Positions 17,026 to 38,084 of a DNA stretch of 64,000 nt are shown piece by piece. Source of the stretch: Actinomycetota bacterium (GTDB lineage Bacteria > Actinomycetota > Acidimicrobiia > Acidimicrobiales > JAMCPD01); NCBI GenBank assembly GCA_023379935.1, contig JAMCPD010000017.1, positions 67,420 through 131,419 of the forward strand. Reading direction: 5' to 3'. Under the pieces are notes generated by a model, which saw only the letters and a program-made list of their open reading frames with translations, ran no database searches and had not been told where the DNA came from. Numbering within the stretch: the stretch's first letter is position 1; each line of letters starts with the position of its first letter. Position numbers and translations under genes: made by a program.

Positions 17026-17040
17026 AAAATAAACCTCCTT

Positions 17041-20000
17041 TTAGCTATACCAACCGGTTACATCCACAACAACATTTACAGAACCTTGATACAGTCCTAT
17101 GCTTATCTTACCAGAAGCAGACAGTTTAACTGTAACAGAGTTTGCAACTGTTAGACCCGGCGAAAAGTTTAGGTTTGAAACTACTGGCTGAGCAGTACCT
17201 TCGGGCCAAACAGTTAGATAGGCATCAGCGGTTGGATTTACCGCTGTTACGTTCAGTACTACAGCTTTGGCATTAGAAGGAATAGGTCCCATACCGGCTA
17301 GACTAAGGGTAAGGAAGACAGAAGAGGAAAGCGGAGTGCTAGAACATCCGGTGGCATAACCAACTGATGATACTGTTCTTGTATCACATGCTCTATAAGG
17401 GGTAGTTCCAACAAAACTGATTCCGGTTGTCGAAGAAGAAAAGTATCCCATCACGTCAACAGCCACATCTGTAGTGCCACTAAAGTTATAGATTGAGATG
17501 TCACCGTTTTGTGGTAGCGGTACTATAACAACATTTGGGACGGTTTGATTTGGTGCAAAGTTCAGGTTTGACGCAGTTGGTTGGGTGGCACCCTCTGGCC
17601 AAACTGTCAGATAACCCGGTTCAGTAGGAGAAATAGCTGTTACGTTTAGTACTGCGGCCACAGCAGTTGTCGGAACTCCTCCTGAAGTCGGACAAGTTGA
17701 TAGGCTGCATGGATTTGTTCCCCCAACCTCTACATTTAATATTTTACTTGGACCCAAGGTTTTCCCTTCACATTGGCTCAAGTCGTAACCGGACAGCTTA
17801 GATGGATTATTGCTTCTTGTGTCACATACTCTGTATGGAGTAATCGGGGAAAAGACAGTTCCGCCGGAGGCCGGCCCGTAGTATCCCTCAACGTCAACCA
17901 CAACATCTGATGAAGCGTAAGAGTATATGGAGATACATCCCGTACAGGAGGTGGTAGTGCCGAGTGCAACCTCTGTCAGATTTGGAACGGTTTGTCCGGA
18001 TGTGTAGTTGAGTGAAGAAGCAGTCGGTTTAACTTCTCCAGCAGGCCAAACAGTAAGATAGCCCGGCCCGGTCGGATCCACTGCCGTTATGTTCAGCACA
18101 ACAGAAGTAGCATTGGACGGCACATATGACTCTCCTGAACCAAGATATGGGCTTTTATAACCCGAAACTTGTATTTGCATGGTTTGTCCGCCACCAAGCG
18201 GAGACGGACCGTTTACATTACACTGATTCTTCAGTATTGAGCTTCCCTGAGGTGTTCTTGTATCACATATTCGATAGGGAACAAGGGGATAGTAGTTTGT
18301 GCCGACTTGAGGCGTAGAAGAAAGATAGGTATATGCCGTCCAGTCAGAGGTTGCACCTGAAACAGTAACACTGACATCTACCGTATCGGGCAAGGTTGCT
18401 CCGCTTGGAGCAGGCGGCACGATAGCGGTGCAGGAGGAAGTAGTAGAACAAGAAACAGACGTTGCGGGAGTAGATCCAAACAAAACGGTTGTACTGCCAG
18501 GGGCGGTTGAAAAGTTCGTACCGGCTAGGGTTACGGTATTACCACCTGAGGCAGGTCCTTGAGAAGGCGAGATAGAGGTTAAGGTTGGTGGCGGTAATAA
18601 AACAGTTGAATAAAGGGTCAGGCCGACATTGTCGGCACCAAGTGTAAAACACTCGCTAACAGTTTGGACGCATGTTGTGTCAGTGCTGTCTACAGGTTCG
18701 AGATAGTTGACAGCTAGTGGCTGCCAGAATGGGGCATCTAATGTTAAGCTGTTCTGTATTGTACAAGCCCCAACTGATAAACACATAATTTTACCTGTTG
18801 AGTTAACTCCTCCGGTAGGCTGATTTGTCCAGGAAGTGCCGTTCCAGAAAAGTACACCTCCGCTGGAACCACTATATGTCCCTGGGGTAGCAAAACAGTA
18901 AGAAGATGAGATGCACAGCACATCATCTATTCCTTCGGGGTTCAAGGAGTCAAAGGAGGAAGGCAGAGTATCGGTTGTCCATCCTGAACCATTGTAAGAA
19001 AGTATAACAGGAGTTGTAGATGTCCCTGCTTTACAGAAGGTAGTCGATACGCACGATATAGTGGAGATGGGGGATATTCCCGAACTAAGGGTTTGTGTAG
19101 TCCATGCAGTACCGTTCCAAGATAACGCAATGGCGGAGGAAGAGGGGCTCCCTCCCACAGCTTCACAGAAGGTTTGAGACACACATGAGATTGCCTCAAG
19201 CGGTGCCACTGTGGATGGGAGAGTCTCGATTGTCCAATTTTTGCCGTTCCAGGACAGAGCAATACCATTAGTTTGAGTTTGTGTAACAGTGCCAATTGCT
19301 GTAACAGTGGTGGTGTAATAAGATCCCACAGCTTCACAGAAGGTCTGAGACACGCATGTAAGCGCATCAATTTCATAAGGTCCTGAGTTAGATGAGGGGA
19401 AAAGGGTTTGATTTGTCCAGGAAGTGCCGTTCCAGGACACAGAGGCTTCGACAATACCAAGAGGGGTATCGCCCGTCCCCAACGCCAGACAAAAGCTTGA
19501 AGAAACACAGGAGATTCTATAAGAACCGCTTATGGCAAAGGGAGGAGTCACACTTGACCAAGCGGTACCGTTGTAAGGGAATATAGCAGCGGTAACATCT
19601 CCGCTGTTTGGAACCGTTATAGCACCTGAAGCCAGGCATGATGAGACAGAAGCGCACCATATGCCACTGAGTGTCCATGTATTGGCTGGGATAGTCTCTG
19701 TGCTCCAGGTTGTACCATTCCAGAAATCCGCATTAGCTCCCACAGCTTGGCAATATGACTCCGAGCTGCACCAAATACTGTTTGTACCCAAAAAACCGGA
19801 GGGAAGAGTTTCATTCGACCAGCTCGTACCGTTATACAGGTATGAAAGAGGACCATTCGGATTGCTGGTTCCATTGTGATAGGAGCCGACAGCCTGGCAG
19901 AAGGTTGGGGAGGTGCATGAAATTGACCTGATAATACTTCCCGTTTCAACAAAAGGTATAGCTTCGGATGCCCAGTTAGTGCCGTTATATCCATATGCAA

Positions 20001-23000
20001 TAACAGTGGTTTGAGTATTACCACCCAACGCCTGGCAAAAGGATGTGGAGGTACATGAGATTGTGCTAAGTTGCCCCTCTATGTCGGGGCTGATGGAAAG
20101 GGTTGTTTCGACTGTCCAAGCGGTACCGTTGTACAAAAGGATAATGTCGTTGGTGGAACTGGAACCGACAGCTTGGCAATAAGTGGAAGATACGCACGCC
20201 ACAGCATAAAGGCCCGTTATTCCCGAAGGTAGGGTTTCATTTGTCCAGGTGGTACCGGTTCCGTTCCAAGAAAAAGCGATTCCAGTCGAAGCTCCAGTCA
20301 AGGTTGTGACGTAGCCCACTACTTGACAAAATCCGTTTGATGAGCCGGTTGGAGGTATACATGAAATTCCCCGGAGACTGCTGTTTGTTGGAATGCCGTC
20401 AATACCGATATCATTGATCCACGTAGATCCTCCGTTGGTTGTTTGGAAAACGGTTGTATCATTGTGTGGCCCATTGCTGGCTACACCAAAACATATGCCG
20501 GTCGTTGCACATGAAATACCCGTAAAGAGATAAGATTGGGAAGGATATCTTGTTGGAGGGAACGAAGACCAGTTGATTGTTGGATTATAGCTGTAACTTA
20601 TAACATTTGAAGTACCAGAGGAAGTCCTTACTGTGACCGGCAGTGTTCCTCCTAAACCGGGCCCGCTTGGTGAAACAACGCTGCAGGTAGTTGTTGATGA
20701 ACAAAAGACATCTGTTGCCGGCTTTGGACCAAAATACACGCTGGTTGAGCCTGTTGCAGTTGAAAAATTGTTACCGGATATCGTTACCAAAGTGCCTCCG
20801 CGCACTGATCCTGTATTTGGATTAATTGCACCAACCAAAGGGGTTAAAGCAGTGACAGAGAGTGCATAAAGCCCCGCGTAGGAGTTTGTGATACCCGATG
20901 TTTCACAAACAGCGCTTAGAGTACTGGATGATATACATGACAGGGCATCAGAAACGCTGGTTACCGAGGAGGGGAAACTTACCTTAGACCAAGTTGAACC
21001 GTTGAGAGAAAGTGAGATGGGGCTGTTGCCGGAGTTATTATTTCCAATTGCCTCACAAAAACCGGGGCCGGTACACGACACCTCATCAAGGCCGCTAATA
21101 TTTACCGGTAGGGCTTGGGGATACCAAGCATTTTCTGATTCGTCGTACTCCGCAGCGCTGTTATTACCAACCAACTCACAAAAAGTTTGTGCCTCAGGCG
21201 ATAGTATACATGACACAGCATTAGCACCGGTGGGCGTATTATTGTCCAAGGTCCAGCTTGAACCGTTCCAAGACAAGACAACACTCGCAGAAGGACTCGC
21301 AGAAGGAGCATACCCGACTGCCATACAAAAGCTTGAAGATGTACATGATACGCTGTTTAGGGTGGCATTGGCTCCCAAAGAACTAAGGGTTTGTGCAGTC
21401 CACACAGTTCCGTTGTAGGAAAAAGCGATAGGGTTACTTGAACTGTATCCTACTGCCTCACAAAAGGTTGTCGTCACACACGATACACTTGTGAGTTGGT
21501 CATTGGCTCCCAAAGAACTAAGGGTTTGTGCAGTCCACACAGTTCCGTTGTAGGAAAAAGCGATAGGGTTACTTGAACTGTATCCTACTGCCTCACAAAA
21601 GGTTGTCGTCACACACGATATCCCAAAAAGATTGGAAGCGGGCGAAGGGAGAGTCTGTTCGGACCATGTAGATCCGTTCCAGGACAAGCCAACACCGACA
21701 GTGGCATTAGAGACGACAGCTGATCCTACTGCCTCACAAAAGGTTGTCGTCACACACGATATGCCATTAGGGGCATTTATCGTTGATGAAGGCAAAGCCA
21801 GTGTAGTCCAACCTGAACCGTTATATAAAAATGCATTAGGGGGGTAGGTGGTTCCTCCTGAATTACCGCCTGAATTAGACGTTCCCAATGCCACACAAAA
21901 GCTTTGAGATATACACGATATGCTGTTGAGGCTGGAATTATAGGGTGAGTTGGGGAAAGAGACAGTCTGTTCAGTATCCCATGTTCCACTATAAGGTAGT
22001 CCAATTGCGGAGTTGGAGCTATAACCGCCCGGAGCATAGCTAAACGATGATCCCCCCGCTTCGCAAAAGCTTACAGAGGTACAAGAAATAGTAGAGTAAA
22101 GAGGTACCGTATTTGATGAATATGAGATTGGAGTGTCGCTGCCGCTCCATGAGGAACCGTTATAAGATAAGATAGTCCCGTCAATAAAAGGCTGAGTGTT
22201 TAAACTGATATTACCTACCGCCATGCAGAAAGTTTCAGAAGCACATGACAACCCCTCAATCTCGCCGTTAGTTGCTTGTTGGGAGGGTAAGCTTTGCGAA
22301 CTCCATGTGCCACCGTTATAAATGGCGGCAATAGCGGTGGAGGTGGTGTTGATAGTACCTCCTGCCACACAAAATTCACTTGATGTTCCAATACATGAAA
22401 CGCTTAACAGTTCAGACTCGGATGAGGTATCGGATGATGGTAATGTTGATGTACTCCATGTGCTGCCGTTGTAAACAGCACCAGCAGCTATGTTAGTGGC
22501 TAAGGAAGAGGAAAAGGTATCTCCGACTGCCATACAAAAGCTTGAAGATGTACATGATATGGCAAAAGGGGACGTTATTGTAGATGGCATGTTTTGAAGT
22601 ATCCATGCAGAGCCGTTATAGGTCAAAGAAACGCCGACATTAGTTGTTCCGTTATAGGAGTACCCCACAGCTTCGCAAAAGCTAGCCGACACACACGATA
22701 TGGCATCCAGCGACCCAACTGAGGAGGGAATTGAGGCTGTATCGTTTGACCATGTTGATCCTCCGTTAGCTGTTTCATAGAGTCCGGCCCCGGTGGGGGG
22801 GTTTCCAGCAGCGTTTAATGGGGTTTTCCCAACAGCAAAGCAAATCTCTGAGCTTATACAACTTATAGATTCAAGTGATGATGCCAAAAACGGGTATTCA
22901 GTTTGGACAGACCACTGTGGAGTGGCGTGAGTATGAATACTGCCCAAAAGGCTGGTTGCATATCCAGGTACAGGTGTAAATACACTGAGTAATGCTGTTA

Positions 23001-23046
23001 GACTGACAACCAAAAAAAGGTGGTAGAAGTTGGGTTTTGTTATCAT
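17041..23046 (-). CDS. 2001-aa secreted mosaic protein: 14 Cys-pair blades, IPT, 14 blades, IPT, 3 PYRxCDTR domains
   Basis: ATG with no SD (see promoter feature) and a signal peptide ending PVPGYA. I counted 14 + 14 blades by hand, of the type ISCVSASFCEAVG...YNGSxW. There are two IPT/TIG domains (GGTLVTISGNNF, GGNTVTLAGTNF). The C-terminus holds three ~140-aa domains starting PYRICDTR, PYRVCDTR and PYRACDTR. Confidence 0.85.
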   Translation of the reverse strand: MITKPNFYHLFLVVSLTALLSVFTPVPGYATSLLGSIHTHATPQWSVQTEYPFLASSLESISCISSEICFAVGKTPLNAAGNPPTGAGLYETANGGSTWSNDTASIPSSVGSLDAISCVSASFCEAVGYSYNGTTNVGVSLTYNGSAWILQNMPSTITSPFAISCTSSSFCMAVGDTFSSSLATNIAAGAVYNGSTWSTSTLPSSDTSSESELLSVSCIGTSSEFCVAGGTINTTSTAIAAIYNGGTWSSQSLPSQQATNGEIEGLSCASETFCMAVGNISLNTQPFIDGTILSYNGSSWSGSDTPISYSSNTVPLYSTISCTSVSFCEAGGSSFSYAPGGYSSNSAIGLPYSGTWDTEQTVSFPNSPYNSSLNSISCISQSFCVALGTSNSGGNSGGTTYPPNAFLYNGSGWTTLALPSSTINAPNGISCVTTTFCEAVGSAVVSNATVGVGLSWNGSTWSEQTLPSPASNLFGISCVTTTFCEAVGYSSSNPIAFSYNGTVWTAQTLSSLGANDQLTSVSCVTTTFCEAVGYSSSNPIAFSYNGTVWTAQTLSSLGANATLNSVSCTSSSFCMAVGYAPSASPSASVVLSWNGSSWTLDNNTPTGANAVSCILSPEAQTFCELVGNNSAAEYDESENAWYPQALPVNISGLDEVSCTGPGFCEAIGNNNSGNSPISLSLNGSTWSKVSFPSSVTSVSDALSCISSSTLSAVCETSGITNSYAGLYALSVTALTPLVGAINPNTGSVRGGTLVTISGNNFSTATGSTSVYFGPKPATDVFCSSTTTCSVVSPSGPGLGGTLPVTVRTSSGTSNVISYSYNPTINWSSFPPTRYPSQSYLFTGISCATTGICFGVASNGPHNDTTVFQTTNGGSTWINDIGIDGIPTNSSLRGISCIPPTGSSNGFCQVVGYVTTLTGASTGIAFSWNGTGTTWTNETLPSGITGLYAVACVSSTYCQAVGSSSTNDIILLYNGTAWTVETTLSISPDIEGQLSTISCTSTSFCQALGGNTQTTVIAYGYNGTNWASEAIPFVETGSIIRSISCTSPTFCQAVGSYHNGTSNPNGPLSYLYNGTSWSNETLPSGFLGTNSIWCSSESYCQAVGANADFWNGTTWSTETIPANTWTLSGIWCASVSSCLASGAITVPNSGDVTAAIFPYNGTAWSSVTPPFAISGSYRISCVSSSFCLALGTGDTPLGIVEASVSWNGTSWTNQTLFPSSNSGPYEIDALTCVSQTFCEAVGSYYTTTVTAIGTVTQTQTNGIALSWNGKNWTIETLPSTVAPLEAISCVSQTFCEAVGGSPSSSAIALSWNGTAWTTQTLSSGISPISTISCVSTTFCKAGTSTTPVILSYNGSGWTTDTLPSSFDSLNPEGIDDVLCISSSYCFATPGTYSGSSGGVLFWNGTSWTNQPTGGVNSTGKIMCLSVGACTIQNSLTLDAPFWQPLAVNYLEPVDSTDTTCVQTVSECFTLGADNVGLTLYSTVLLPPPTLTSISPSQGPASGGNTVTLAGTNFSTAPGSTTVLFGSTPATSVSCSTTSSCTAIVPPAPSGATLPDTVDVSVTVSGATSDWTAYTYLSSTPQVGTNYYPLVPYRICDTRTPQGSSILKNQCNVNGPSPLGGGQTMQIQVSGYKSPYLGSGESYVPSNATSVVLNITAVDPTGPGYLTVWPAGEVKPTASSLNYTSGQTVPNLTEVALGTTTSCTGCISIYSYASSDVVVDVEGYYGPASGGTVFSPITPYRVCDTRSNNPSKLSGYDLSQCEGKTLGPSKILNVEVGGTNPCSLSTCPTSGGVPTTAVAAVLNVTAISPTEPGYLTVWPEGATQPTASNLNFAPNQTVPNVVIVPLPQNGDISIYNFSGTTDVAVDVMGYFSSSTTGISFVGTTPYRACDTRTVSSVGYATGCSSTPLSSSVFLTLSLAGMGPIPSNAKAVVLNVTAVNPTADAYLTVWPEGTAQPVVSNLNFSPGLTVANSVTVKLSASGKISIGLYQGSVNVVVDVTGWYS
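21366..21620 (-). repeat. 135-bp tandem duplication with a 120-bp perfectly identical core
   Basis: 21366-21485 is identical to 21501-21620. Each copy encodes one blade (VTTTFCEAVGYSSSNPIAFSYNGTVWTAQTLSSLGAN). Confidence 0.9.
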
Positions 23047-26821: not shown

Positions 26822-28261
26822 TCATAGGCTACAAACCTTCAATAAGTCATTAAACCACCCGTTAGCGGCCCGTTGTGATATCAATGACTTTAGGGCTTGT
26901 GCGGTCTGTTTTCTTTCTGTAATCCCGGTATCCAACCCGTTGGCGAGGGCTTGTGCGGTTTGTGTAATATCAAATGGATTGACTTCTATTACATGATCCT
27001 TTAACTCTTCAAAAGCTCCGGTTTGGTTGGAAAGGACAACTACCCCGTTGTTTGAGTTTACGATTGGTCCCTCTTTGGCTATAAGGTTCAGTCCGTCTTT
27101 AATCGGGTTGACCAACAACACGTCATAGGCGCGCAAAGCCGCTACAGAGTGTACATGATTGTCTTGAATATTGAGAATTATCGGTGACCAATTTTTGGTT
27201 GACCAGGTATCATTTATGCGCTTAACCAAAGTTTCAATCTCTGCTTTATACGAGATGTACTGTGCAAGTTGTTGTCTGGAGGAATAAAGCATTGCCAAAA
27301 ATACTACTTTTTCACGTAAATCAGCTCTGGTTTTCATCATTTCCTCAAACGCCAGGAATCCCCTAAGAATGTTTTTTGAAGGTTCTATGCGGTCTACTCT
27401 AAGTATCAGACGATTGCCGCCCGCCAGTTTGTTTATCCGGCTATATGCGTCTGTACACTCGCTTGATGCAACTGTTTGATTCAAATAGTTTATGTCCGGT
27501 CCCAAAGGCGCAACGAATGTCTGATTCGGATCTTTCTCCAGTAGTTCTCTGCAGCAGGATTTATATGCTTCTTCCCAGCGCTTTGCATGAAAGCCGCATG
27601 CTTTGTAAGAGAACATTGCGCTGAGCAGTTCTTTAGATATTGGATCGGGCAGGTATCCCAGGTCTTGAGGGCTACAAAAAGGTGTATGCGTGAAATGTGT
27701 TATCGACAAGTCGGGACGCAGTTCGGCTAAAAAACTCCCCACCAAAAATAGGTGATAGTCCTGTACTAATACGTGAGCATCCTCGGCGGCCTCGTTAGCG
27801 GCAGAAGCAGCAAATTGACGATTTATTTCCCTGTATGCTTCCCAGGCTTTGGTGAAATGGCAGTCCAAATGTGGTTGATGAACCGGGTCAAACAAATTAT
27901 GCAGGCAAAACCATAAAACAGTGTTGGATACCACATCATAAGCCATGCTATACCGGGCGGGATCCAAGATCAGCGTCTTTAGAACTGTTTGTCCGAAACT
28001 GTTGGTAACTGCTTGTATGTCTGAGGCATGTCCGACGGTTTCCTGAGAAGCTCCCTGAACAGCCTCCCGATCAGTATCGGTTACTGCGGCGGTAATCCAA
28101 GTTGTTTTAATTTTTTGCAATACAGGTCCCAAGGTAGAGGCCAAGCCTCCGCCTGAGCGCTTGGACACCAGTTCACCGTTTTTATCCCTTGAAAATGAAA
28201 AAGGACCTCGGTTGGAGAGGACCACCAGGTCGGCTCCGGTCATGTGTAGTGATGATAGCAC
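26822..28261 (-). CDS. otsA: trehalose-6-phosphate synthase (GT20)
   Basis: 479 aa with OtsA-like blocks VVLSNRGP, GGLASTL, VQDYHL, LRVDRIEPSKNI and DGLNLIAKE. Confidence 0.9.
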   Translation of the reverse strand: MLSSLHMTGADLVVLSNRGPFSFSRDKNGELVSKRSGGGLASTLGPVLQKIKTTWITAAVTDTDREAVQGASQETVGHASDIQAVTNSFGQTVLKTLILDPARYSMAYDVVSNTVLWFCLHNLFDPVHQPHLDCHFTKAWEAYREINRQFAASAANEAAEDAHVLVQDYHLFLVGSFLAELRPDLSITHFTHTPFCSPQDLGYLPDPISKELLSAMFSYKACGFHAKRWEEAYKSCCRELLEKDPNQTFVAPLGPDINYLNQTVASSECTDAYSRINKLAGGNRLILRVDRIEPSKNILRGFLAFEEMMKTRADLREKVVFLAMLYSSRQQLAQYISYKAEIETLVKRINDTWSTKNWSPIILNIQDNHVHSVAALRAYDVLLVNPIKDGLNLIAKEGPIVNSNNGVVVLSNQTGAFEELKDHVIEVNPFDITQTAQALANGLDTGITERKQTAQALKSLISQRAANGWFNDLLKVCSL

Positions 28262-28437
28262 CGGGGGATGATAAAAGCAAGCAGGCCCCGAAACTTCTTG
28301 GTGAAGGCGGATAAAGTTTATTTTTTTATTGTTGTGATATTGACATTGTAAGGACTTATGAGCAAGAATAGTAGTTAGAGTACCTGCTAACTTACTAGTC
28401 TACTTTTTACCATTTTTTTGTTAGGCTGTAGCTTGTA

Positions 28438-28537
28438 AGGTCTCATCAAGAGCGACTGAGGGACGGGCCCGATGATGTCGCGGCAACCTGCTAAGTGCCG
28501 TATATAGCAAGGTGCCAATGCCTGATCGATGAGGAGA
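28438..28537 (+). promoter_or_regulatory. SAM-I (S-box) riboswitch
   Basis: The sequence CTCATCAAGAGCGACTGAGGGACGGGCCCGATGATGTCGCGGCAACC...GGTGCCAATGCCTGATCGATGAG matches the S-box core. P1 pairs CTCATC (28442-28447) with GATGAG (28528-28533). The 3' strand of P1 overlaps the SD GAGGAG (28531-28536), 6 nt before GTG 28543. No terminator follows, so control is probably translational. Confidence 0.85.
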
Positions 28538-28542
28538 ATTGA

Positions 28543-29802
28543 GTGAATTTTATTGAAGAAAATTTCAACAAGGAAGTATATTACACAGGACTGCGTTGCA
28601 GGGAGTGTTCCAGAACTTATCCCGCCGAGGCACTTTATTTTTGCGATTTTTGCTTTGGGCCGCTAGAGGTGGTTTATGACTATGAAGCTATAGCAGGCAA
28701 GGTTACGAAGCAGTCCATAGCAGCAGGTCCGCAGAGTATGTGGCGATATAGGGACCTATTACCAGTCGCAAGCGGGTCACTTATAGATCTTGGAGCAGGC
28801 TTTACTCCGTTGGTTAAGGCGGATCGTCTTGGAGCGGAGCTTGGGCTGAAACAGCTTTGGATTAAAGACGATACCGTCAACCCCAGCGGCTCTTTCAAAG
28901 ACAGGGTGGTCTCAGTATCTCTCACCAAGGCTCGCGAACTTGGCTTTAAAGTGGTTGCGTGTGCTTCCACGGGCAACCTGGCTAACTCGGTTGCCGCTCA
29001 TGCCGCACGCGCCGGCATGGAGTGTTATATTTTCATTCCTAATGATTTAGAAGAAGCTAAGGTAGTTACTACTGCAGTTTATGGGGCTAACTTGATAGCT
29101 GTGGAGGGGACTTATGATGATGTAAATCGTTTATGTGCAGAGTTGACCAGTGAGCGTCCATCGTGGGCATTTGTCAATGTAAATATTCGACCATACTATG
29201 CGGAAGGATCTAAAACTTTAGCTTTTGAAGTGGCTGAACAGTTGGGCTGGCGCCTCCCTGACCATGTTGTGGTCCCAATAGCATCCGGTAGCCAGCTAAC
29301 CAAGATACATAAAGGGTTTGAAGAACTTGTCAATGTCAAACTTGTAGAACCTCATCCGGTTAGAATTTCAGGAGCACAGGCCGTGGGATGTGCTCCTGTC
29401 GCGAATGCGTTTAGTGATCAATCTGATTATATACATCCGGTCAAACCTTCCACTATTGCCAAGTCTTTGGCAATAGGCAATCCTGCTGATGGAATATATG
29501 CACTTGATGTAGTCCGTAAAAGTGGTGGATCGTGTCTTGCGGTAACCGATACCGAGATTGTGGAAGGTATACGTTTGCTTGCCGCCACAACGGGAATTTT
29601 TGCGGAAACAGCAGGTGGTGTTACAATAGCAACACTTGATAAACTTGTGTCGCAGGGAGTTGTGAGACCTGAGGAAAATGTCGTGGTTATGGTGACTGGC
29701 AACGGGCTAAAGACTATAGAGGCGCTAGCACCGTATGTGGGACCTACCTTCAATATTCCACCAACGCTGGAAGCTTTTGAAGCCGCTGTTACGGAAGGTT
29801 AG
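28543..29802 (+). CDS. threonine-synthase-family PLP enzyme with N-terminal Zn ribbon (MetM-like candidate)
   Basis: Cys4 ribbon CRECS...CDFC, PLP lysine motif NPSGSFKDR, and a Gly-rich loop. It sits behind a SAM riboswitch and upstream of a MoaD-like gene. Confidence 0.8.
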   Translation: MNFIEENFNKEVYYTGLRCRECSRTYPAEALYFCDFCFGPLEVVYDYEAIAGKVTKQSIAAGPQSMWRYRDLLPVASGSLIDLGAGFTPLVKADRLGAELGLKQLWIKDDTVNPSGSFKDRVVSVSLTKARELGFKVVACASTGNLANSVAAHAARAGMECYIFIPNDLEEAKVVTTAVYGANLIAVEGTYDDVNRLCAELTSERPSWAFVNVNIRPYYAEGSKTLAFEVAEQLGWRLPDHVVVPIASGSQLTKIHKGFEELVNVKLVEPHPVRISGAQAVGCAPVANAFSDQSDYIHPVKPSTIAKSLAIGNPADGIYALDVVRKSGGSCLAVTDTEIVEGIRLLAATTGIFAETAGGVTIATLDKLVSQGVVRPEENVVVMVTGNGLKTIEALAPYVGPTFNIPPTLEAFEAAVTEG

Positions 29803-29910
29803 CGTGCATAGCTGCCAACTTACAAGCCCAGCGTTGTTTTGAAAGCAGGCAGTTGTTATATTGCCGGTTAAGATTTGAGGGAGTTGTTAGGATTTGATAG
29901 GATCAATTTT

Positions 29911-30228
29911 ATGGCTGTAACAGTACGTATACCAACTCAACTTCGTACCCTCACTCAAGGTGTAGGTGAGGTTTCAGTTGAAGGCGATACCGTGGGAGCA
30001 GCACTCCGGGCGTTGGAAGCGTCTTATCCGGGTTTTGCGGAAAGAATATTGGACGAAGAGGGTTCACTCAGACGGTTTGTCAACGTTTTTGTTGCCGATG
30101 AAGACGTTAGATTTTTACAAGGATTGGATACTGTTTTAACACAAGGGCAGATTGTCTCTATACTACCTGCAGTTGCCGGTGGAGATTGTACAACTTCGAC
30201 TCCGTTTATCAAGGATACGGAATTTTAA
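29911..30228 (+). CDS. MoaD/ThiS-family sulfur-carrier protein with C-terminal extension after Gly-Gly
   Basis: MAVTVRIPTQLRTLTQG...ILPAVAGG followed by DCTTSTPFIKDTEF. I prefer the ATG at 29911 to the TTG at 29875 because MoaD-family proteins normally begin at this beta strand. Confidence 0.75.
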   Translation: MAVTVRIPTQLRTLTQGVGEVSVEGDTVGAALRALEASYPGFAERILDEEGSLRRFVNVFVADEDVRFLQGLDTVLTQGQIVSILPAVAGGDCTTSTPFIKDTEF

Positions 30229-30356: not shown

Positions 30357-32723
30357 ATGAGAACAGGAACTGGAAGAACTGGGATCAAACTCTACAAAGG
30401 ATATACAATTGTAGCGGCTGTATTGGTTATGACAACCTTAAGTACTCTCTTTAGCTCTGTTGTCATGACCACCGCTGATGCAGGTGCGCAATCGAGCACA
30501 CAGGCCGGCACACAGGCCTATAGTGCCGTTACCCCATTTAGGATAGCTGATACCCGCTCAAGTTATCATTGCGGAAATGTCAGCCCCGCCGGATCTCTTG
30601 GGCCGGATGCTACCGTAACGCTGACGGTTGTAGGAGCGAGCGACTGTGAAAGTACCTCCGGTAGCGTTCCTTCAAATGCAACCGCTGTTGCACTTAATGT
30701 AACCGTCACAGATACTACGGCTCCGGGTTTTCTCACCCTCTATCCTGCCAACGTTACCAAGCCTACATCCTCCAATTTGAACTGGCAGGCTGGAGAGACT
30801 GTTCCCAATATGGTTGTCATAAAACTCAGCCCTACCGGGACCATTGACATCTACAACGGATCGGATGGCACCAGTGATGTGGTAGTCGATGTAGAAGGCT
30901 ATTTCATGCCGGCCAGTTCAACGACCGGAACGGGACATTATCAACCGTTACCGACTCCGCAACGCATTTGTGATACCCGTCCCGCTAGTACAACTACGCC
31001 CAATAATCAATGCACGGATCATCCCTTACAAGCCGGTACCTCTTCACAAACACTTACGGTTCAGGTTGCAGGGAAAGCAGGGCTTCCCGTTACCGGGGTC
31101 TCAGCGGTTGCTTTAAATGTTACCGCTATCAACCCTAGCGTATTTAGTTATTTAACGGTATACCCTGCCAGTGCTACAAGACCCACAGTTTCGAATCTGA
31201 ACTTTGTTGCTGGTGAAACTGTACCCAATCGGGTAATAGTGGGGCTTGGAACTAATGGTTCCATAGATGTCTATAATTTTGCCGGCACAGTTGATGTGGC
31301 TATAGATGTAACAGGGTATTTTACAGATTCCACAGCACAACAAACCTTTGGCAGTCTTTTTGAACCGATTTCACCGCAGCGTATCTGTGATACTCGCCCC
31401 GCAAGTGTTACAGGTTATACCGATCAATGCACGGGTCACACTTTACAAGCCGGTACCTCTTCACAAACACTTACGGTTCAGGTTGCAGGAGAGGGCGGCA
31501 TTCCCGCATCAGCCAGCGCTACCCCACCTACAGCTGTGGTCTTGGATGTGGCTGTTACCGACACCACCGCCCCCAGCTATCTCACTGTTTACCCCAGCGG
31601 AGCAACTCCGCCGACAGCATCTGACCTCAACTGGACGGCTGGTGTGACGCGAGCCAATCTGGTGGTAGCCACTCTTGCTCCCGGGGGCACCCTTTTAGTC
31701 TATAACTTCTCCGGTTCTACAGATGTTGTGATAGATGTAGTCGGCTACTTTACTGCTGCGGCTACAACCTGGACACAAGTGCTGCCGGCTGTTCCCATTT
31801 CAGGAGTATCGCCTTATAATGGCACTGGTGATACTTCAACCATGTACGCGGCGATGGCCTATGATGCCAATACCAATCAGGTTATTTTTTACGGAGGCAT
31901 TAATTCAAGTACTGATACTTTTGCTTGGAGTGGATCTTCGTGGTCGGAAGTATCCTCGGCAAATACTCCTCCTGCTGGATTGTATGGGGCATCAATGGTG
32001 TATGATGCCGCCAACCAAACAATACTGTTTTTTGGTGGGACATCTGTGGGTTACCAATCTAGTCCTTCAAATAGCACATGGGTATGGGATGGCACCAACT
32101 GGACCGAAGCGGCTCCCACAACCAGTCCTTCAGGGGGTTACGGTGAAGGAATGGCATATGATCCCGCTATTGGCAAAGTGGTACTCTATACTGATTATGG
32201 TAATACCTGGACTTGGGATGGCACCAACTGGACAAAGCTTTCTCCTGCTACAAGTCCCGGACCAATCTGTGCTGAAGTAATGGCTTATGATCCTTCTACC
32301 ACCAGTATCATTTTGTTTGGTGGATATGATAACAGTGCTTCTGTTCCTCTATCTCTATCAGGTTGTGGCGGCGGTTACGGCAATGAAGAGCCCTCACTTG
32401 ATGCTACGTGGAGTTTCGACGGTACAACATGGAGCAAGTTAAGTCCTGCCACAAGCCCGCCAGGACGCCAAAATGCAGCTATGGCTTATGACCCGAACAC
32501 CAGTCAGTTGGTACTTTTTGGCGGAAATGCCGGCGGTACTTGCAGTAGCGTACCTTGTAATCCGTTGAACGATACCTGGACTTTCAATGGTAACAACTGG
32601 ACACAGCAAAGCCCGCAGTCTGTTCCCCCTGCCGGGGACGGCACCAATGGCATGGTATGGGATGGTACAGCGTTGATGATGGTTGGCAACCAAGGTAGTA
32701 CTTGGCACTATCCAACCATGTAA
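30357..32723 (+). CDS. 788-aa secreted protein: 3 PxRIxDTR domains + ~6 Kelch-type repeats
   Basis: Signal/TM at the N-terminus. The domains start VTPFRIADTR, PTPQRICDTR and ISPQRICDTR, and each ends DVxGYF. The C-terminal half has Kelch-like blades (MAYDPxTxxxxLFGG...WxxDGTxW). GGAGAAAAAAT lies before the ATG. Confidence 0.85.
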   Translation: MRTGTGRTGIKLYKGYTIVAAVLVMTTLSTLFSSVVMTTADAGAQSSTQAGTQAYSAVTPFRIADTRSSYHCGNVSPAGSLGPDATVTLTVVGASDCESTSGSVPSNATAVALNVTVTDTTAPGFLTLYPANVTKPTSSNLNWQAGETVPNMVVIKLSPTGTIDIYNGSDGTSDVVVDVEGYFMPASSTTGTGHYQPLPTPQRICDTRPASTTTPNNQCTDHPLQAGTSSQTLTVQVAGKAGLPVTGVSAVALNVTAINPSVFSYLTVYPASATRPTVSNLNFVAGETVPNRVIVGLGTNGSIDVYNFAGTVDVAIDVTGYFTDSTAQQTFGSLFEPISPQRICDTRPASVTGYTDQCTGHTLQAGTSSQTLTVQVAGEGGIPASASATPPTAVVLDVAVTDTTAPSYLTVYPSGATPPTASDLNWTAGVTRANLVVATLAPGGTLLVYNFSGSTDVVIDVVGYFTAAATTWTQVLPAVPISGVSPYNGTGDTSTMYAAMAYDANTNQVIFYGGINSSTDTFAWSGSSWSEVSSANTPPAGLYGASMVYDAANQTILFFGGTSVGYQSSPSNSTWVWDGTNWTEAAPTTSPSGGYGEGMAYDPAIGKVVLYTDYGNTWTWDGTNWTKLSPATSPGPICAEVMAYDPSTTSIILFGGYDNSASVPLSLSGCGGGYGNEEPSLDATWSFDGTTWSKLSPATSPPGRQNAAMAYDPNTSQLVLFGGNAGGTCSSVPCNPLNDTWTFNGNNWTQQSPQSVPPAGDGTNGMVWDGTALMMVGNQGSTWHYPTM

Positions 32724-32901: not shown

Positions 32902-34617
<1,716 letters not shown>

Positions 34618-36132: not shown

Positions 36133-36378
36133 TCAACTCTCAACCATGTCGCCAAGTAAGTCAACACTTATGCCAAGCTCCCTAAGCCACTTTAGTGATT
36201 CCTCTATCGCATCCGTGGTGCCGGAAAGTTCACAAATAATCCACCCCTCCGTGCCTTCTACGCTGGCGCGGCGGATATTTGGGACTACATTATGTTCCTT
36301 AACCAGGCGCGCTATTATCGGTTCACGAATTAGTTTTTCTGGAAAAATAAGTTTTACTCTCAACACTACTGATGTCAT
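36133..36378 (-). CDS. stand-alone NIL-domain protein
   Basis: 81 aa resembling the C-terminal NIL domain of MetN (EPIIARLVKEHNVVPNIRRASVEG...GWIICELSG). Its start overlaps the upstream stop (ATGA). Confidence 0.7.
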   Translation of the reverse strand: MTSVVLRVKLIFPEKLIREPIIARLVKEHNVVPNIRRASVEGTEGWIICELSGTTDAIEESLKWLRELGISVDLLGDMVES

Positions 36379-37217
36379 ATTTTTTTATTCCTATATCCCT
36401 GCAAGTCTAACATGACACGACTATACCCCGCCGCTTTTACTGCTTTTACTATTTTATCCCGTTCCTTTAGGACTTTTGGCAAGTCAGAGACTTCAAATTC
36501 AATACATGCCAACGAGTCATAATGGCGCACTCTAAGCTGCTCAAAGCCGAGTTGTCTAACGGCGTACTCTGCTTTTTCCACAGTTCGCAAGGTTTTAATG
36601 TTTATCGGTGTTCCATGAGGAATTCTGGAAGCCAAACAAGCATTCTGTGGTTTGTTCCACGTAGGCAATCCCAGTGAGCGCGACAAGGAACGTATTTTTG
36701 CTTTATCAAATCCGGCTTGCACAAAGGGGAACACTGCACCGTTGAGTTGCGCAGCTTTTTGACCCGGCCTTACGTCGTTCAAGTCATCAAGATTGACACC
36801 CAGTACCACCGTTGCTTTACCGGCTTCGTCCGAGGTTACCTTGTCGTAGGATGCAAAGGAGGGTGTCAGATTGGATATAACTGACATTAGCTCTGTTTTA
36901 CACCAGTAGCAGCGTGAGACAGTATTTTGAATATAAAGTGGATTATCGAGCTCGTGTGTTACAACAGTTGCCCACTGTAGATTCCACTGAGCAGCCAAGT
37001 TTTTGCAAAAGGTGGCGTCTTGAGTGGTCAGAGTGGGAGACACGGCTGTTACACACAGTGTATTGTCCTTGCCCAACACGTTGTTGGCTGACCAAGCCAG
37101 CAAGGAAGAGTCTGCTCCGCCGCTAAAGGCAACTATGACTCGTTGTAAGCTGTTCAACACTTCGGCCAGAGCATGCCAAGCGGTTTGCAAATCTTTATCT
37201 AATGTCTGATAGTTCAT
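36375..37217 (-). CDS. PP-loop ATP pyrophosphatase, LarE-like (TIGR00268-type) sulfur transferase
   Basis: PP-loop AFSGGADSSLL and the conserved Cys motif NACLASRIPHG, with a length of 280 aa. Confidence 0.7.
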   Translation of the reverse strand: MNYQTLDKDLQTAWHALAEVLNSLQRVIVAFSGGADSSLLAWSANNVLGKDNTLCVTAVSPTLTTQDATFCKNLAAQWNLQWATVVTHELDNPLYIQNTVSRCYWCKTELMSVISNLTPSFASYDKVTSDEAGKATVVLGVNLDDLNDVRPGQKAAQLNGAVFPFVQAGFDKAKIRSLSRSLGLPTWNKPQNACLASRIPHGTPINIKTLRTVEKAEYAVRQLGFEQLRVRHYDSLACIEFEVSDLPKVLKERDKIVKAVKAAGYSRVMLDLQGYRNKKI

Positions 37218-37896
37218 TGATTTCAGCTACTATGCCCATGTAAAAAGGGCCAAAGTGTGCATACTCAGCCGACGCTTCATCAAAGCGCATTTCATATATA
37301 ATGGCTTTTAAATCATCCGGACATTGCGCGAAAAGGGTGACTCCCCATTCGTAATCATCCAATCCAAAAGACCCGGTAACCAGCTGAACGACTTTACCGG
37401 CGTACTTTCGCCCTGTGGCACCATGTGCAAGCATAAGCTCCTTTCGTTTTTCAAACGATAAGGTATACCAGTTTTGTCCAACTTTACGCCTTTTTGACAT
37501 CGGATAGAAGCAGAATGCCCGCATTCCTTCCGGGGGAAGAACAGGATATAAGCGCGCATTTTTGATTTGATCGGGCAAGCCCGGGGCATATTCTGAGGTT
37601 TCTGTCAATGAAACATACGAGCAGGACAACTCAAGTTCCGATGCCTTTAACGCATTTTGAAAACTTTTCAAATGCCAAAAGTTTTTAGCAATGGCCATAA
37701 AGCCGATATCGGCTTTATGCCCCAACAAGGCAACGGTAACTATCTGAACGTCATTTTCGCGAGCTTCTTTTATCGCGGTATCGACAGTTTGGATGTCAAA
37801 GTTCTTATTGACTTTGCAAAACAGGTGGACAACCCCCAAACCTGTCGAAGGGGCCAACTCCTTCTTGGCAGTTATGGGGTTATAAGAAGAGTTCAT
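37195..37896 (-). CDS. hemQ: coproheme decarboxylase / chlorite-dismutase-family HemQ
   Basis: The pattern GLGVVHLFCKV...YVSLTETSEY...FYPMSKRR...NWY...R..LM..H matches the chlorite dismutase family. I chose the start at ATG 37896, which forms an ATGA overlap with the upstream small ORF, over the ORF-track start at 37929. Confidence 0.8.
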   Translation of the reverse strand: MNSSYNPITAKKELAPSTGLGVVHLFCKVNKNFDIQTVDTAIKEARENDVQIVTVALLGHKADIGFMAIAKNFWHLKSFQNALKASELELSCSYVSLTETSEYAPGLPDQIKNARLYPVLPPEGMRAFCFYPMSKRRKVGQNWYTLSFEKRKELMLAHGATGRKYAGKVVQLVTGSFGLDDYEWGVTLFAQCPDDLKAIIYEMRFDEASAEYAHFGPFYMGIVAEINELSDIR

Positions 37897-38084
37897 TTGG
37901 GCGGATCTTGCTGTTTTCGTATATGCCAACCTATTTTTGAAGTTTTTCTAGGTTCATAAAATAAGCAGTTTTCAGGACAGGCAAATGGGAGTATTTGCCC
38001 AGCGTTTAGTTTGCAACGTTCCAGTTTCTCGTTGGTTTTTGTGCTTTGCATTACATAGTGGTGGCAGTCCGGCTTTACAGACAT
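37893..38084 (-). CDS. 63-aa Cys4 miniprotein, translationally coupled to hemQ
   Basis: It has four Cys (C7, C24, C35, C39; ...FACPENCLFYEPR). Its stop overlaps the hemQ ATG. I cannot assign a family. Confidence 0.45.
   Translation of the reverse strand: MSVKPDCHHYVMQSTKTNEKLERCKLNAGQILPFACPENCLFYEPRKTSKIGWHIRKQQDPPK

What the first reader, a model, noticed from the sequence alone, without database searches (positions are those of the whole stretch)
28438..30228. SAM-I riboswitch controlling a Zn-ribbon ThrC homolog plus a MoaD-like carrier with a post-GG extension
**Seen**
- A canonical S-box element sits upstream, and its P1 3' strand overlaps the SD of the first gene.
- The first gene is a threonine-synthase-family PLP enzyme (SFKDR) with an N-terminal Cys4 ribbon.
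- The second is a ubiquitin-fold MoaD/ThiS protein ending ...AVAGG-DCTTSTPFIKDTEF.

**Known**
- SAM riboswitches regulate Met/Cys/SAM genes, not threonine synthesis.
- Protein thiocarboxylates (CysO, HcyS) donate sulfur to PLP enzymes.
- As I recall, a ThrC-like/sulfur-carrier pair (MetM/MetO) making homocysteine from O-phosphohomoserine has been described in Streptomyces.
- Carriers with residues after the Gly-Gly need a JAMM-type protease to be activated.

**Inference**
- This is a MetM/MetO-type homocysteine route under translational SAM control.
- The processing protease and the adenylating (MoeZ-like) enzyme must be encoded elsewhere.
Basis: partly seen in the sequence, partly recalled or inferred. 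Interest (0 to 1): 0.65.

Follow-up and report, generated by a model that had tools for sequence, protein, structure and literature searches.

The report
SAM-riboswitch-controlled MetM/MetO homocysteine operon
This is a two-gene operon, switched off by S-adenosylmethionine through an RNA sensor, that most likely makes the methionine precursor homocysteine with a threonine-synthase-like enzyme and a small sulfur-carrier protein; the pathway was described in Streptomyces in 2024, so this is a new example of a known system and not a new system.

Summary
Rfam places a SAM-I aptamer at 28440-28535 (75.9 bits; threshold 44.4). The 3' strand of its P1 helix (28528-28534) overlaps the Shine-Dalgarno GAGGAG, 6 nt before the GTG start at 28543. 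There is no terminator.

The aptamer lacks helix P4. That variant is conserved in at least 26 related leaders and is already described for Actinomycetota.

Gene 1 (28543-29802) is a ThrC-family PLP enzyme with four invariant N-terminal Cys. Gene 2 (29911-30228) is a ThiS/MoaD carrier closest to M. tuberculosis CysO. It has 14 residues after the Gly-Gly.

In 82 loci from six or more phyla, the carrier gene follows the enzyme gene in 71. A SAM-I aptamer precedes the enzyme gene in 38. The enzyme clade is separate from housekeeping ThrC and carries different residues at ThrC's recalled phosphate-site positions.

The literature held here describes MetM/MetO, with Mec and MoeZ, in Streptomyces albulus, including an upstream SAM riboswitch.

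The 64-kb window has no protease, E1-like enzyme, thrC or thrB. Direct comparison with S. albulus MetM and any activity test were not possible.

Verdict: a new member of a known kind, of modest interest. Side lead: a small NIL-domain protein adjoins metM in Chloroflexota and Nitrospirota.

The parts
28340..28369 (+). Promoter-like site (TTGACA, 18 nt, AAGAAT) about 70 nt upstream of the aptamer
   Evidence: Consensus scan only, 10 of 12 matches. This is weak evidence; the transcription start is not known.
28440..28535 (+). SAM-I (S-box) aptamer, P4-less variant with P1, P2a/b, P3 and pseudoknot PK-1
   Evidence: RF00162 at 75.9 bits against a gathering score of 44.4, E = 5e-16, with P4 deleted. 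The MFE fold reproduces P1, P2 and P3. On 25 related leaders the structure is 93.5% paired, 12 pairs show changes on both sides, and 0 of 500 shuffles reach that.
28441..28447 (+). P1 5' strand, UCUCAUC
   Evidence: Pairs with 28528-28534 over 7 contiguous pairs including one G-U.
28528..28536 (+). P1 3' strand GAUGAGG, overlapping the Shine-Dalgarno GAGGAG (28531-28536)
   Evidence: Read directly from the sequence. The same GAUGAGGAG(G), followed 4-9 nt later by ATG or GTG, is seen in most of the 25 aligned relatives.
28543..29802 (+). metM-like gene: 419-aa ThrC-family PLP enzyme with GTG start, an N-terminal Cys4 ribbon (C19, C22, C34, C37) and the PLP lysine K119 in SFKDR
   Evidence: PALP E = 9e-77; TIGR00260 at 307 bits; NF006050 at 318 bits. 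The Cys are invariant. The gene sits in the carrier-linked clade with signature R216/Y219/S223/S248, against N/R/Q/N in ThrC. NCBI names it 'threonine synthase'.
29911..30228 (+). metO-like gene: 105-aa ThiS/MoaD-fold sulfur carrier with Gly90-Gly91 (30178-30183) followed by the 14-residue tail DCTTSTPFIKDTEF (30184-30225)
   Evidence: PF02597 E = 2e-13; SAMP1 NF041918 at 60.4 bits (cut-off 60). The best solved relative is M. tuberculosis CysO, 3dwg_C, E = 2.6e-24. Of the 120 nearest clusters, 98 end exactly at GG.
36133..36378 (-). Stand-alone NIL-domain protein of 81 aa; a possible accessory, and its membership of the system is not established
   Evidence: PF09383 E = 8e-17. Homologues lie directly next to metM in 8 loci of Chloroflexota and Nitrospirota. 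In the window it is coupled to larE instead.
36375..37217 (-). LarE-family PP-loop ATPase of 280 aa in a hemQ-larE-NIL operon; probably unrelated to the finding
   Evidence: TIGR00268 at 266 bits against a cut-off of 150. A homologue follows metO directly only in L029. A related genome has LarB- and LarC-like genes near larE-NIL.

Best explanation
This is a SAM-repressed metM-metO operon for homocysteine synthesis.

When SAM is plentiful it binds the P4-less SAM-I aptamer and locks helix P1. The 3' strand of P1 contains the ribosome-binding site, so the first gene is not translated (inferred from the anatomy). When SAM is low, P1 opens and both genes are expressed.

The carrier (MetO-like) must first lose its 14 residues after Gly-Gly, most likely to a JAMM/Mec-type protease. 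An E1-like enzyme (MoeZ/ThiF type) must then adenylate its C-terminal glycine and convert it to a thiocarboxylate. Both enzymes would be encoded outside this window (inferred from the CysO, HcyS and MetO precedents).

The ThrC-like PLP enzyme (MetM-like) would then eliminate phosphate from O-phosphohomoserine and add the carrier's thiocarboxylate sulfur at C-gamma. The adduct would be resolved to homocysteine (inferred by homology to S. albulus MetM; not tested here).
For: - SAM-I aptamer well above the Rfam threshold, with P1 overlapping the SD and no terminator.
- The same SD-in-P1 design in at least 26 related leaders, with covariation in P2, P3 and PK-1.
- A model built from these leaders finds exactly one aptamer directly upstream of the enzyme gene in 38 of 82 sources.
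- The carrier gene directly follows the enzyme gene in 71 of 82 sources, spanning Actinomycetota, Cyanobacteria, Chloroflexota, Nitrospirota and others.
- In L048 the pair is flanked by two ThiF (E1-like) genes. In L058 it lies next to sulfite reductase and ATP sulfurylase genes.
- The enzyme clade is separate from short ThrCs encoded in hom-thrC-thrB operons and has its own residue signature.
- Nonomuraea has both a canonical thrC-thrB pair and a riboswitch-metM-metO locus.
- Literature: the MetM, MetO, Mec and MoeZ pathway; a SAM riboswitch upstream of S. albulus metM, and 51.6% identity between the Microcystis homologue and MetM.
- The carrier is closest to CysO, a proven thiocarboxylate carrier.
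Against: - The S. albulus MetM and MetO sequences could not be obtained, so orthology rests on a two-step link through Microcystis.
- The only biochemical study of a non-Streptomyces homologue available here (Microcystis, PMC12172450) reported threonine deaminase activity and no clear MetM function in vivo.
- NCBIfam equivalog models call the protein threonine synthase, above their cut-offs.
- No Mec/JAMM, MoeZ/ThiF, thrB or second thrC lies in the 64-kb window, and the rest of the genome could not be read.
- P4-less aptamers are reported to bind SAM more weakly (PMC12714719).
- SAM binding and SD sequestration are untested.
Confidence: 0.8

Rival explanations
1. The first gene is the organism's ordinary threonine synthase, as annotated, and the carrier gene next to it serves another pathway such as molybdopterin or thiamin synthesis.
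For: TIGR00260 and NF006050 'threonine synthase' scores exceed their curated cut-offs. The best solved relatives are ThrCs, for example 2zsj at E = 3e-60. No other thrC lies in the window.
Against: A SAM riboswitch makes no regulatory sense for threonine synthesis. The enzyme-carrier adjacency is kept in 71 of 82 loci across phyla. The clade is separate from operon-encoded ThrCs and differs at conserved ThrC positions N159, R162, Q166 and N190 in Aquifex numbering. Nonomuraea has a separate thrC-thrB pair. GapMind 2026 states that MetM is often misannotated as threonine synthase.
Confidence: 0.05
2. The pair is a carrier-dependent sulfur-transfer system whose substrate or product differs from MetM's. 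Examples would be O-phosphoserine to cysteine (like CysM/CysO, or like the ThrC-fold cysteate synthase), or an enzyme whose main role is threonine deamination as proposed for Microcystis.
For: The carrier's best solved relative is CysO of the cysteine pathway. Cysteate synthase is a distant ThrC-family hit at 76 bits. SAM riboswitches also control cysteine genes in some bacteria (general knowledge). The Microcystis homologue showed deaminase activity.
Against: The only member of this clade tied to genetics and biochemistry (S. albulus MetM) uses O-phosphohomoserine and gives homocysteine. L048 encodes a separate CysK/CysM-like PALP enzyme beside the metM-metO pair, which suggests distinct roles. 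Cysteate synthase scores far below its cut-off of 325 bits.
Confidence: 0.12
3. The riboswitch does not work mainly by hiding the ribosome-binding site. SAM binding would instead trigger Rho-dependent termination or mRNA decay, or the P4-less aptamer would no longer respond to SAM.
For: There is no intrinsic terminator. Shortening P4 is reported to lower SAM affinity. The MFE of the leader is no better than that of shuffled sequence, z = 0.1.
Against: All SAM-contacting core positions align to RF00162 with high posterior probability. The P4-less form is conserved with covariation in 25 leaders. The SD lies inside P1 in nearly all of them, which argues for selection on that overlap. Aptamers can function without P4 (PMC12714719). 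Loss of translation would itself expose the mRNA to Rho or RNases, so these mechanisms need not exclude each other.
Confidence: 0.15

Closest known systems
MetM/MetO (with Mec and MoeZ) of Streptomyces albulus: homocysteine from O-phosphohomoserine (Hasebe et al. 2024, as cited)
   Same: A ThrC-homologous PLP enzyme with an adjacent ThiS/MoaD-type carrier and an upstream SAM riboswitch. The carrier needs maturation. The protease and E1-like enzyme are not in the operon.
   Different: The host is an uncultured Acidimicrobiia-like lineage at 46% G+C. The aptamer lacks P4 and uses P1 itself to hide the SD. The carrier tail is 14 residues with no similarity to other tails. Sequence identity to the S. 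albulus proteins could not be measured directly. Activity is untested.
CysM/CysO/Mec/MoeZ of Mycobacterium tuberculosis: cysteine from O-phosphoserine
   Same: A carrier thiocarboxylate donates sulfur to a fold-type-II PLP enzyme acting on a phosphorylated hydroxy-amino acid. The window's carrier aligns with CysO over residues 1-91 at E = 2.6e-24.
   Different: The PLP enzyme here belongs to the ThrC family, not the CysK/CysM family. No mec gene is adjacent. Regulation is by a SAM riboswitch.
HcyS/HcyD/HcyF/MetY of Wolinella succinogenes: thiocarboxylate-dependent homocysteine synthesis (from my own knowledge)
   Same: A carrier with residues after the Gly-Gly that a JAMM-type protease removes. 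The product is homocysteine.
   Different: That system uses O-acetylhomoserine and a MetY (fold-type-I) enzyme. Its accessory genes are clustered with it.
Housekeeping threonine synthase (ThrC; e.g. PDB 2zsj, 1uim, 2d1f)
   Same: Same fold, the SFKDR lysine motif, and probably the same substrate, O-phosphohomoserine. Identity is about 38%.
   Different: The window's protein has an extra 65-residue Cys4 N-terminus. Conserved ThrC residues N159, R162, Q166 and N190 (Aquifex numbering) are R, Y, S and S here. It is not in a hom-thrC-thrB operon. It is controlled by SAM.
SAM-I riboswitch, P4-less Actinomycetota variants (PMC12714719)
   Same: The same core, P1-P3 and PK-1. Loss of P4 in a group of Actinomycetota is already described.
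   Different: Nothing essential differs. This work adds that the P4-less form with the SD inside P1 is the standard leader of metM in Acidimicrobiia.

Membership tests
MetM (thiocarboxylate-dependent homocysteine synthase) | ThrC-family fold-type-II PLP enzyme with the Schiff-base lysine | tested here: met
   PALP E = 9e-77; SFKDR at residues 117-121; K119 invariant.
MetM (thiocarboxylate-dependent homocysteine synthase) | A paralogue distinct from the housekeeping ThrC | tested here: met
   The NJ tree separates it from operon-encoded ThrCs. An 18-position signature is fixed in 27 of 27 clade members and differs in 5 of 5 ThrCs. Co-occurrence with thrC-thrB is shown only in Nonomuraea, not in this genome.
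MetM (thiocarboxylate-dependent homocysteine synthase) | Orthology to the characterised S. albulus MetM | tested here: inconclusive
   The sequence was not obtainable, and the best 80 loci of the genome scan did not reach Streptomyces. The link is indirect: 60% identity to the Microcystis homologue, which the literature reports as 51.6% identical to MetM.
MetM (thiocarboxylate-dependent homocysteine synthase) | Adjacent metO carrier gene | tested here: met
   The carrier gene starts 108 nt downstream on the same strand. The adjacency holds in 71 of 82 loci.
MetM (thiocarboxylate-dependent homocysteine synthase) | Converts O-phosphohomoserine plus MetO thiocarboxylate to homocysteine | not testable with these tools
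   Needs biochemistry or genetics.
MetO (sulfur carrier) | ThiS/MoaD beta-grasp protein with a C-terminal Gly-Gly | tested here: met
   PF02597 E = 2e-13; aligns end to end with CysO up to GG91.
MetO (sulfur carrier) | Maturation by Mec and charging by MoeZ, both encoded in the genome | not testable with these tools
   No JAMM or ThiF gene lies in the window or about 2 kb beyond its low-coordinate end. ThiF genes flank the pair in L048.
SAM-I riboswitch (RF00162) | Score at or above the Rfam gathering threshold with the conserved core | tested here: met
   75.9 bits against 44.4, covering model positions 1-108.
SAM-I riboswitch (RF00162) | Four-way junction including helix P4 | tested here: not met
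   P4 is deleted here and in at least 26 related leaders. This is a known natural variant.
SAM-I riboswitch (RF00162) | Binds SAM and represses expression | not testable with these tools
   Needs in-line probing, ITC or reporter assays.
Threonine synthase (housekeeping ThrC) | Curated family score | tested here: met
   TIGR00260 at 307 bits (cut-off 167) and NF006050 at 318 bits (cut-off 303). GapMind 2026 warns that MetM is often misannotated this way.
Threonine synthase (housekeeping ThrC) | Conserved residues N159, R162, Q166 and N190 (Aquifex numbering). From memory, two of these correspond to the phosphate-binding Arg160 and Asn188 of T. thermophilus ThrC | tested here: not met
   They are replaced by R216, Y219, S223 and S248. 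The functional assignment of these residues is my recollection and was not verified.
Threonine synthase (housekeeping ThrC) | Genomic context with hom and/or thrB | tested here: not met
   The neighbours are otsA, the carrier gene, a Kelch-repeat protein and groEL.

The most novel reading that the evidence does not exclude
A stand-alone NIL-domain protein of about 80 aa may be an unrecognised partner of MetM-type homocysteine synthesis, acting as a sulfur-relay or methionine/homocysteine-sensing subunit.

- It is translationally coupled or directly adjacent to metM in 8 loci from Chloroflexota and Nitrospirota.
- In two of these loci (L034, L087) it stays beside metM although metO is not adjacent.
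- In the window's lineage the same protein is instead coupled to a LarE-family enzyme, which makes thiocarboxylates.
- NIL domains also occur in the MA1822-type protein of the aspartate-semialdehyde route to homocysteine and in MetN.

None of the papers I read on MetM/MetO mentions NIL.
Probability: 0.2. Interest if true: 0.5.

Novelty: new member of a known kind. Interest (0 to 1): 0.3.

Why it matters
- **Annotation.** The gene and thousands of its relatives are named 'threonine synthase' in public databases. Read correctly, they supply the homocysteine step.
- **An old pathway gap.** Price et al. 2018 listed Acidimicrobium and Aquifex as lacking any known homocysteine route. Relatives of this gene occur in Ferrimicrobium and Aquificaceae.
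- **A practical test.** The residue signature R216/Y219/S223/S248, against N/R/Q/N in ThrC, together with the carrier adjacency, separates the two functions in genome annotation.
- **Regulation.** The P4-less, SD-in-P1 leader is a compact natural translational SAM switch.

None of this changes current understanding of the pathway.

Tried and rejected
- **S. albulus MetM sequence.** Hasebe et al. 2024 (PMC11497804) is not held. The genome scan kept only the best 80 loci (at least 56% identity) and did not reach Streptomyces. No Streptomyces MetM-like hit appeared among plasmid records. Direct comparison was therefore impossible.
- **First scan attempt.** The 17-sequence alignment A1 was too diverse for the scan; a 6-sequence alignment worked.
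- **LarE as the thiocarboxylate-forming enzyme for the carrier.** I considered this because larE follows metO in L029 and lies 3-6 kb away in Acidimicrobiia. I largely rejected it. In Acidimicrobiia larE sits in a hemQ-larE-NIL operon separated from metO by groEL. A related genome has LarB- and LarC-like genes nearby, so that larE is probably a genuine nickel-pincer cofactor gene.
- **P4-less SAM-I as a new riboswitch variant.** Rejected, because PMC12714719 already describes Actinomycetota aptamers without P4. I found no compensating pseudoknot between the P3 loop and the 3' tail (reading).
- **Zn ribbon as a MetM marker.** Rejected, because ribbon-bearing representatives with the canonical ThrC signature exist (P0356, P0383).
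- **Literature check of ThrC phosphate-site residues.** This failed.
- **A second thrC in this genome.** This could not be searched.
Full report
**Source and observation.** The window is part of contig JAMDDC010000017.1 of GCA_023489215.1, an uncultured Actinomycetota MAG whose closest relatives are Acidimicrobiales.

- Rfam's SAM-I model (RF00162) matches 28440-28535 at 75.9 bits (gathering score 44.4), E = 5e-16. It is the only riboswitch in the window.
- ORF 28543-29802 encodes 419 aa and is a PALP-domain protein. It reaches the curated threonine-synthase models TIGR00260 (307 bits, cut-off 167) and NF006050 (318 bits, cut-off 303).
- ORF 29911-30228 encodes 105 aa with a ThiS/MoaD domain and ends AVAGG followed by DCTTSTPFIKDTEF. 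Its start is the ATG at 29911 used by its homologues, not the first in-frame TTG.

**The RNA.**

- The cmscan alignment covers the whole model but skips the P4 hairpin. The minimum-energy fold gives P1, P2 and P3 only.
- P1 is UCUCAUC (28441-28447) paired with GAUGAGG (28528-28534). The Shine-Dalgarno GAGGAG is at 28531-28536 and the GTG start at 28543.
- No terminator-like hairpin lies between the aptamer and the start codon. The only obvious expression platform is therefore P1 itself.
- In the upstream regions of 81 related loci the same arrangement recurs. At least 26 leaders, from all Acidimicrobiia and several other Actinomycetota, lack P4. They run from J3/4 (AAUGCCCGA.C) straight into GAUGAGGAG(G), with ATG or GTG 4-9 nt later.
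- On an alignment of 25 of these leaders, the structure P1/P2a/P2b/P3 plus pseudoknot PK-1 is 93.5% paired. Twelve pairs show changes on both sides. None of 500 shuffles reaches that, and slid controls give 30-50% pairing.
- A covariance model built from them finds exactly one aptamer, directly upstream of the enzyme gene, in 38 of 82 sources and none in about 38 cyanobacterial loci.
- Homologous leaders that keep P4 come from Nonomuraea, Chloroflexota and Verrucomicrobiia, and some carry a terminator-like hairpin with a U-run.
- P4-less SAM-I aptamers in a group of Actinomycetota are already described. They are reported to function, with lower affinity as P4 shortens (PMC12714719). This feature is therefore not new.

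**The enzyme.**

- The best solved relatives are threonine synthases at about 38% identity (2zsj, E = 3e-60). They start only at residue 63-68 of the window's protein.
- The extra N-terminus holds C19, C22, C34 and C37, which are invariant in 17 homologues down to 44% identity.
- An all-against-library search finds 2,337 representatives at E below 1e-30.
- I built a neighbour-joining tree of 117 sequences. It included ThrCs encoded next to hom and/or thrB (Listeria, Microbacterium, Nonomuraea) and the Aquifex ThrC of PDB entry 2zsj. The short ThrCs fall apart from a large ribbon-bearing group, and the window's protein is nested in a terminal clade whose members are followed by the carrier gene.
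- Eighteen alignment positions are fixed in 27 of 27 members of that clade and differ in 5 of 5 ThrCs.
  - SFKDR-GM becomes SFKDR-VV.
  - STGNTSA becomes STGNLAN.
  - N159, R162, Q166 and N190 (Aquifex numbering) become R216, Y219, S223 and S248.
- From memory, R162 and N190 correspond to the phosphate-binding Arg160 and Asn188 of T. thermophilus ThrC, whose retained phosphate directs water addition. I could not verify this in the held literature.
- Deeper ribbon-bearing representatives keep the ThrC signature (P0356, P0383). The ribbon is thus a subfamily trait, and the signature, not the ribbon, marks the carrier-linked clade.

**The carrier.**

- Its best solved relative is M. tuberculosis CysO (3dwg_C, E = 2.6e-24), aligned from residue 1 to the Gly-Gly at 90-91. 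Next is the Amycolatopsis ThiS/MoaD protein 4n6e_B.
- Of the 120 nearest protein clusters, 98 end exactly at Gly-Gly. The other 22 have tails of 1-34 residues with no similarity to each other, and the commonest tail is a single Cys.
- In the genome loci, 9 of about 68 complete carriers have a tail.
- The 14-residue tail here is therefore a lineage-specific cap and not a conserved module. It is real, because the identical 105-aa product is called in three independent sequencing runs.
- A free C-terminal glycine is needed for adenylation (established for ThiS, MoaD and CysO), so the tail must be removed. For S. albulus MetO, the GapMind preprint lists Mec as needed for maturation.

**Comparative context.**

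- A scan of one genome per species returned 80 loci. They are Acidimicrobiia (65-74% identity), then Cyanobacteria, Chloroflexota, Nitrospirota, Aquificaceae, Verrucomicrobiia and others (56-63%).
- The carrier gene lies directly downstream of the enzyme gene in 71 of 82 sources.
- In L048 (Manganitrophaceae) the order is CysK/M-like PALP, ThiF, metM, metO, NIL, ThiF.
- In L058 (Dehalococcoidia) the order is metM, NIL, metO, followed by sulfite reductase and ATP sulfurylase.
- The Nonomuraea gerenzanensis chromosome, filed among plasmids, carries otsA, a SAM-I aptamer, metM, metO and groEL in the same order as the window. It also has a separate canonical thrC-thrB pair elsewhere.
- The window itself, plus about 2 kb beyond its low-coordinate end, holds no JAMM or ThiF gene and no hom, thrB, thrC or metX/Y gene.

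**Comparison with what is known.**

- The GapMind 2026 preprint summarises the S. albulus pathway of Hasebe et al. 2024. It consists of the carrier MetO, the hydrolase Mec, the sulfur ligase MoeZ and the MetO-thiocarboxylate-dependent homocysteine synthase MetM. [quoted passage not shown]
- PMC12172450 adds three points.
  - S. albulus metM has an upstream SAM riboswitch.
  - The Microcystis 'ThrC' is 51.6% identical to MetM and sits next to a metO-like gene.
  - That Microcystis gene lacks the riboswitch.
- All three points match my loci. The window's enzyme is 60% identical to the Microcystis novacekii homologue.
- The same paper found threonine deaminase activity and no clear MetM role for the Microcystis enzyme. 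The function of non-Streptomyces members is therefore not settled.
- I could not obtain the S. albulus sequences.

**Mechanism and verdict.**

- Shown here: a conserved SAM-I aptamer whose P1 contains the SD; a ThrC-family paralogue with a distinct residue signature; a tightly linked CysO-like carrier with a removable tail; and association of the pair with E1-like and sulfate-assimilation genes in other lineages.
- Inferred: SAM-dependent block of translation initiation; removal of the tail by a JAMM/Mec protease; thiocarboxylation by a MoeZ-type enzyme; and gamma-replacement of O-phosphohomoserine to give homocysteine.
- I put this at about 0.8.
- This is a new member of a known, recently described kind. 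Its practical value lies in correcting annotation and in explaining homocysteine synthesis in Acidimicrobiia and Aquificae, which Price et al. 2018 listed as lacking a known route.

**Side observations.**

- A stand-alone NIL-domain protein is directly adjacent to metM in 8 loci of Chloroflexota and Nitrospirota.
- In the window it is coupled to a LarE-family PP-loop ATPase in a hemQ-larE-NIL operon at 36133-37929 on the minus strand.
- A related genome has LarB- and LarC-like genes near larE-NIL, so that LarE is probably a genuine nickel-pincer cofactor enzyme and not the enzyme that charges the carrier.
- The NIL link to metM is the most novel reading left open.

Noticed in passing
window 36133-36378 (-); L034 6400-6627; L048 7518-7757; L058 7242-7484; L060 7248-7478; L067 4459-4686; L069 7239-7487; L070 7272-7514; L087 7276-7503: A stand-alone NIL-domain protein (PF09383, about 80 aa) lies directly after metM in 7 Chloroflexota loci and after metO in a Manganitrophaceae locus. 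In some loci its start overlaps the stop of the preceding gene. In L034 and L087 it stays beside metM although metO is not adjacent. In the window it is 6 kb away and coupled to larE. No paper I read on MetM/MetO mentions it.
   Followed up: partly
window 36375-37217 (-) and 37195-37929 (-); L029 2634-3542; L093 8351-10240 and 14894-16778: A LarE-family PP-loop ATPase (TIGR00268, 266 bits) forms a hemQ-larE-NIL operon that is conserved in Acidimicrobiia 3-6 kb from metM-metO. In L029 a larE homologue follows metO directly. L093 has LarC (PF01969) and LarB-like (AIRC) genes nearby, which suggests a genuine nickel-pincer cofactor role and not carrier charging.
   Followed up: partly
window 28440-28535; L008-L028, L051, L053, L082, L084 (coordinates): All Acidimicrobiia metM leaders use a SAM-I aptamer without helix P4, with the SD built into the P1 3' strand. 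In most of them an A-G mismatch interrupts P1 where the window has a C-G pair. Homologous leaders in Nonomuraea, Chloroflexota and Verrucomicrobiia keep P4, and some have terminator-like hairpins. The P4-less variant is already described (PMC12714719).
   Followed up: yes
window 26822-28261 (-), 28440-30228 (+), 32962-34617 (+); L007 5634-7205 (-), 7852-9542 (+), 10187-11938 (+): The order otsA (trehalose-6-phosphate synthase), riboswitch-metM-metO, groEL is shared by this Acidimicrobiia-like MAG and Nonomuraea (Streptosporangiales). In the window a 788-aa Kelch-repeat protein (30357-32723) is inserted between metO and groEL.
   Followed up: partly
L048 4153-8610: This Manganitrophaceae locus clusters a CysK/CysM-like PALP gene, ThiF, metM, metO, NIL and a second ThiF. 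It was the only locus seen in which the E1-like enzymes sit with the pair.
   Followed up: partly
P0121-P0240 (carrier homologues); L025, L029, L040, L058, L060, L067, L070, L087: Tails after the Gly-Gly occur in 22 of 120 nearest carrier clusters and in 9 genome loci. They are unrelated in sequence and 1-34 residues long. The commonest tail is a single Cys, which resembles the CysO-cysteine adduct that Mec hydrolyses.
   Followed up: partly
L030-L083 (cyanobacterial loci), e.g. L044 1087-1353: Cyanobacterial metM-metO loci have no SAM riboswitch. Nine of them carry a second, MoaD-type carrier gene (TIGR01682, 60.7 bits, just under the cut-off) a few hundred bases upstream of metM.
   Followed up: no
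window 10711-23046 (-): Two very large adjacent genes (2104 aa and 2001 aa) carry Pro-kumamolisin activation/He_PIG and TIG domains respectively. They are probably secreted or cell-surface proteins and are unrelated to the finding.
   Followed up: no
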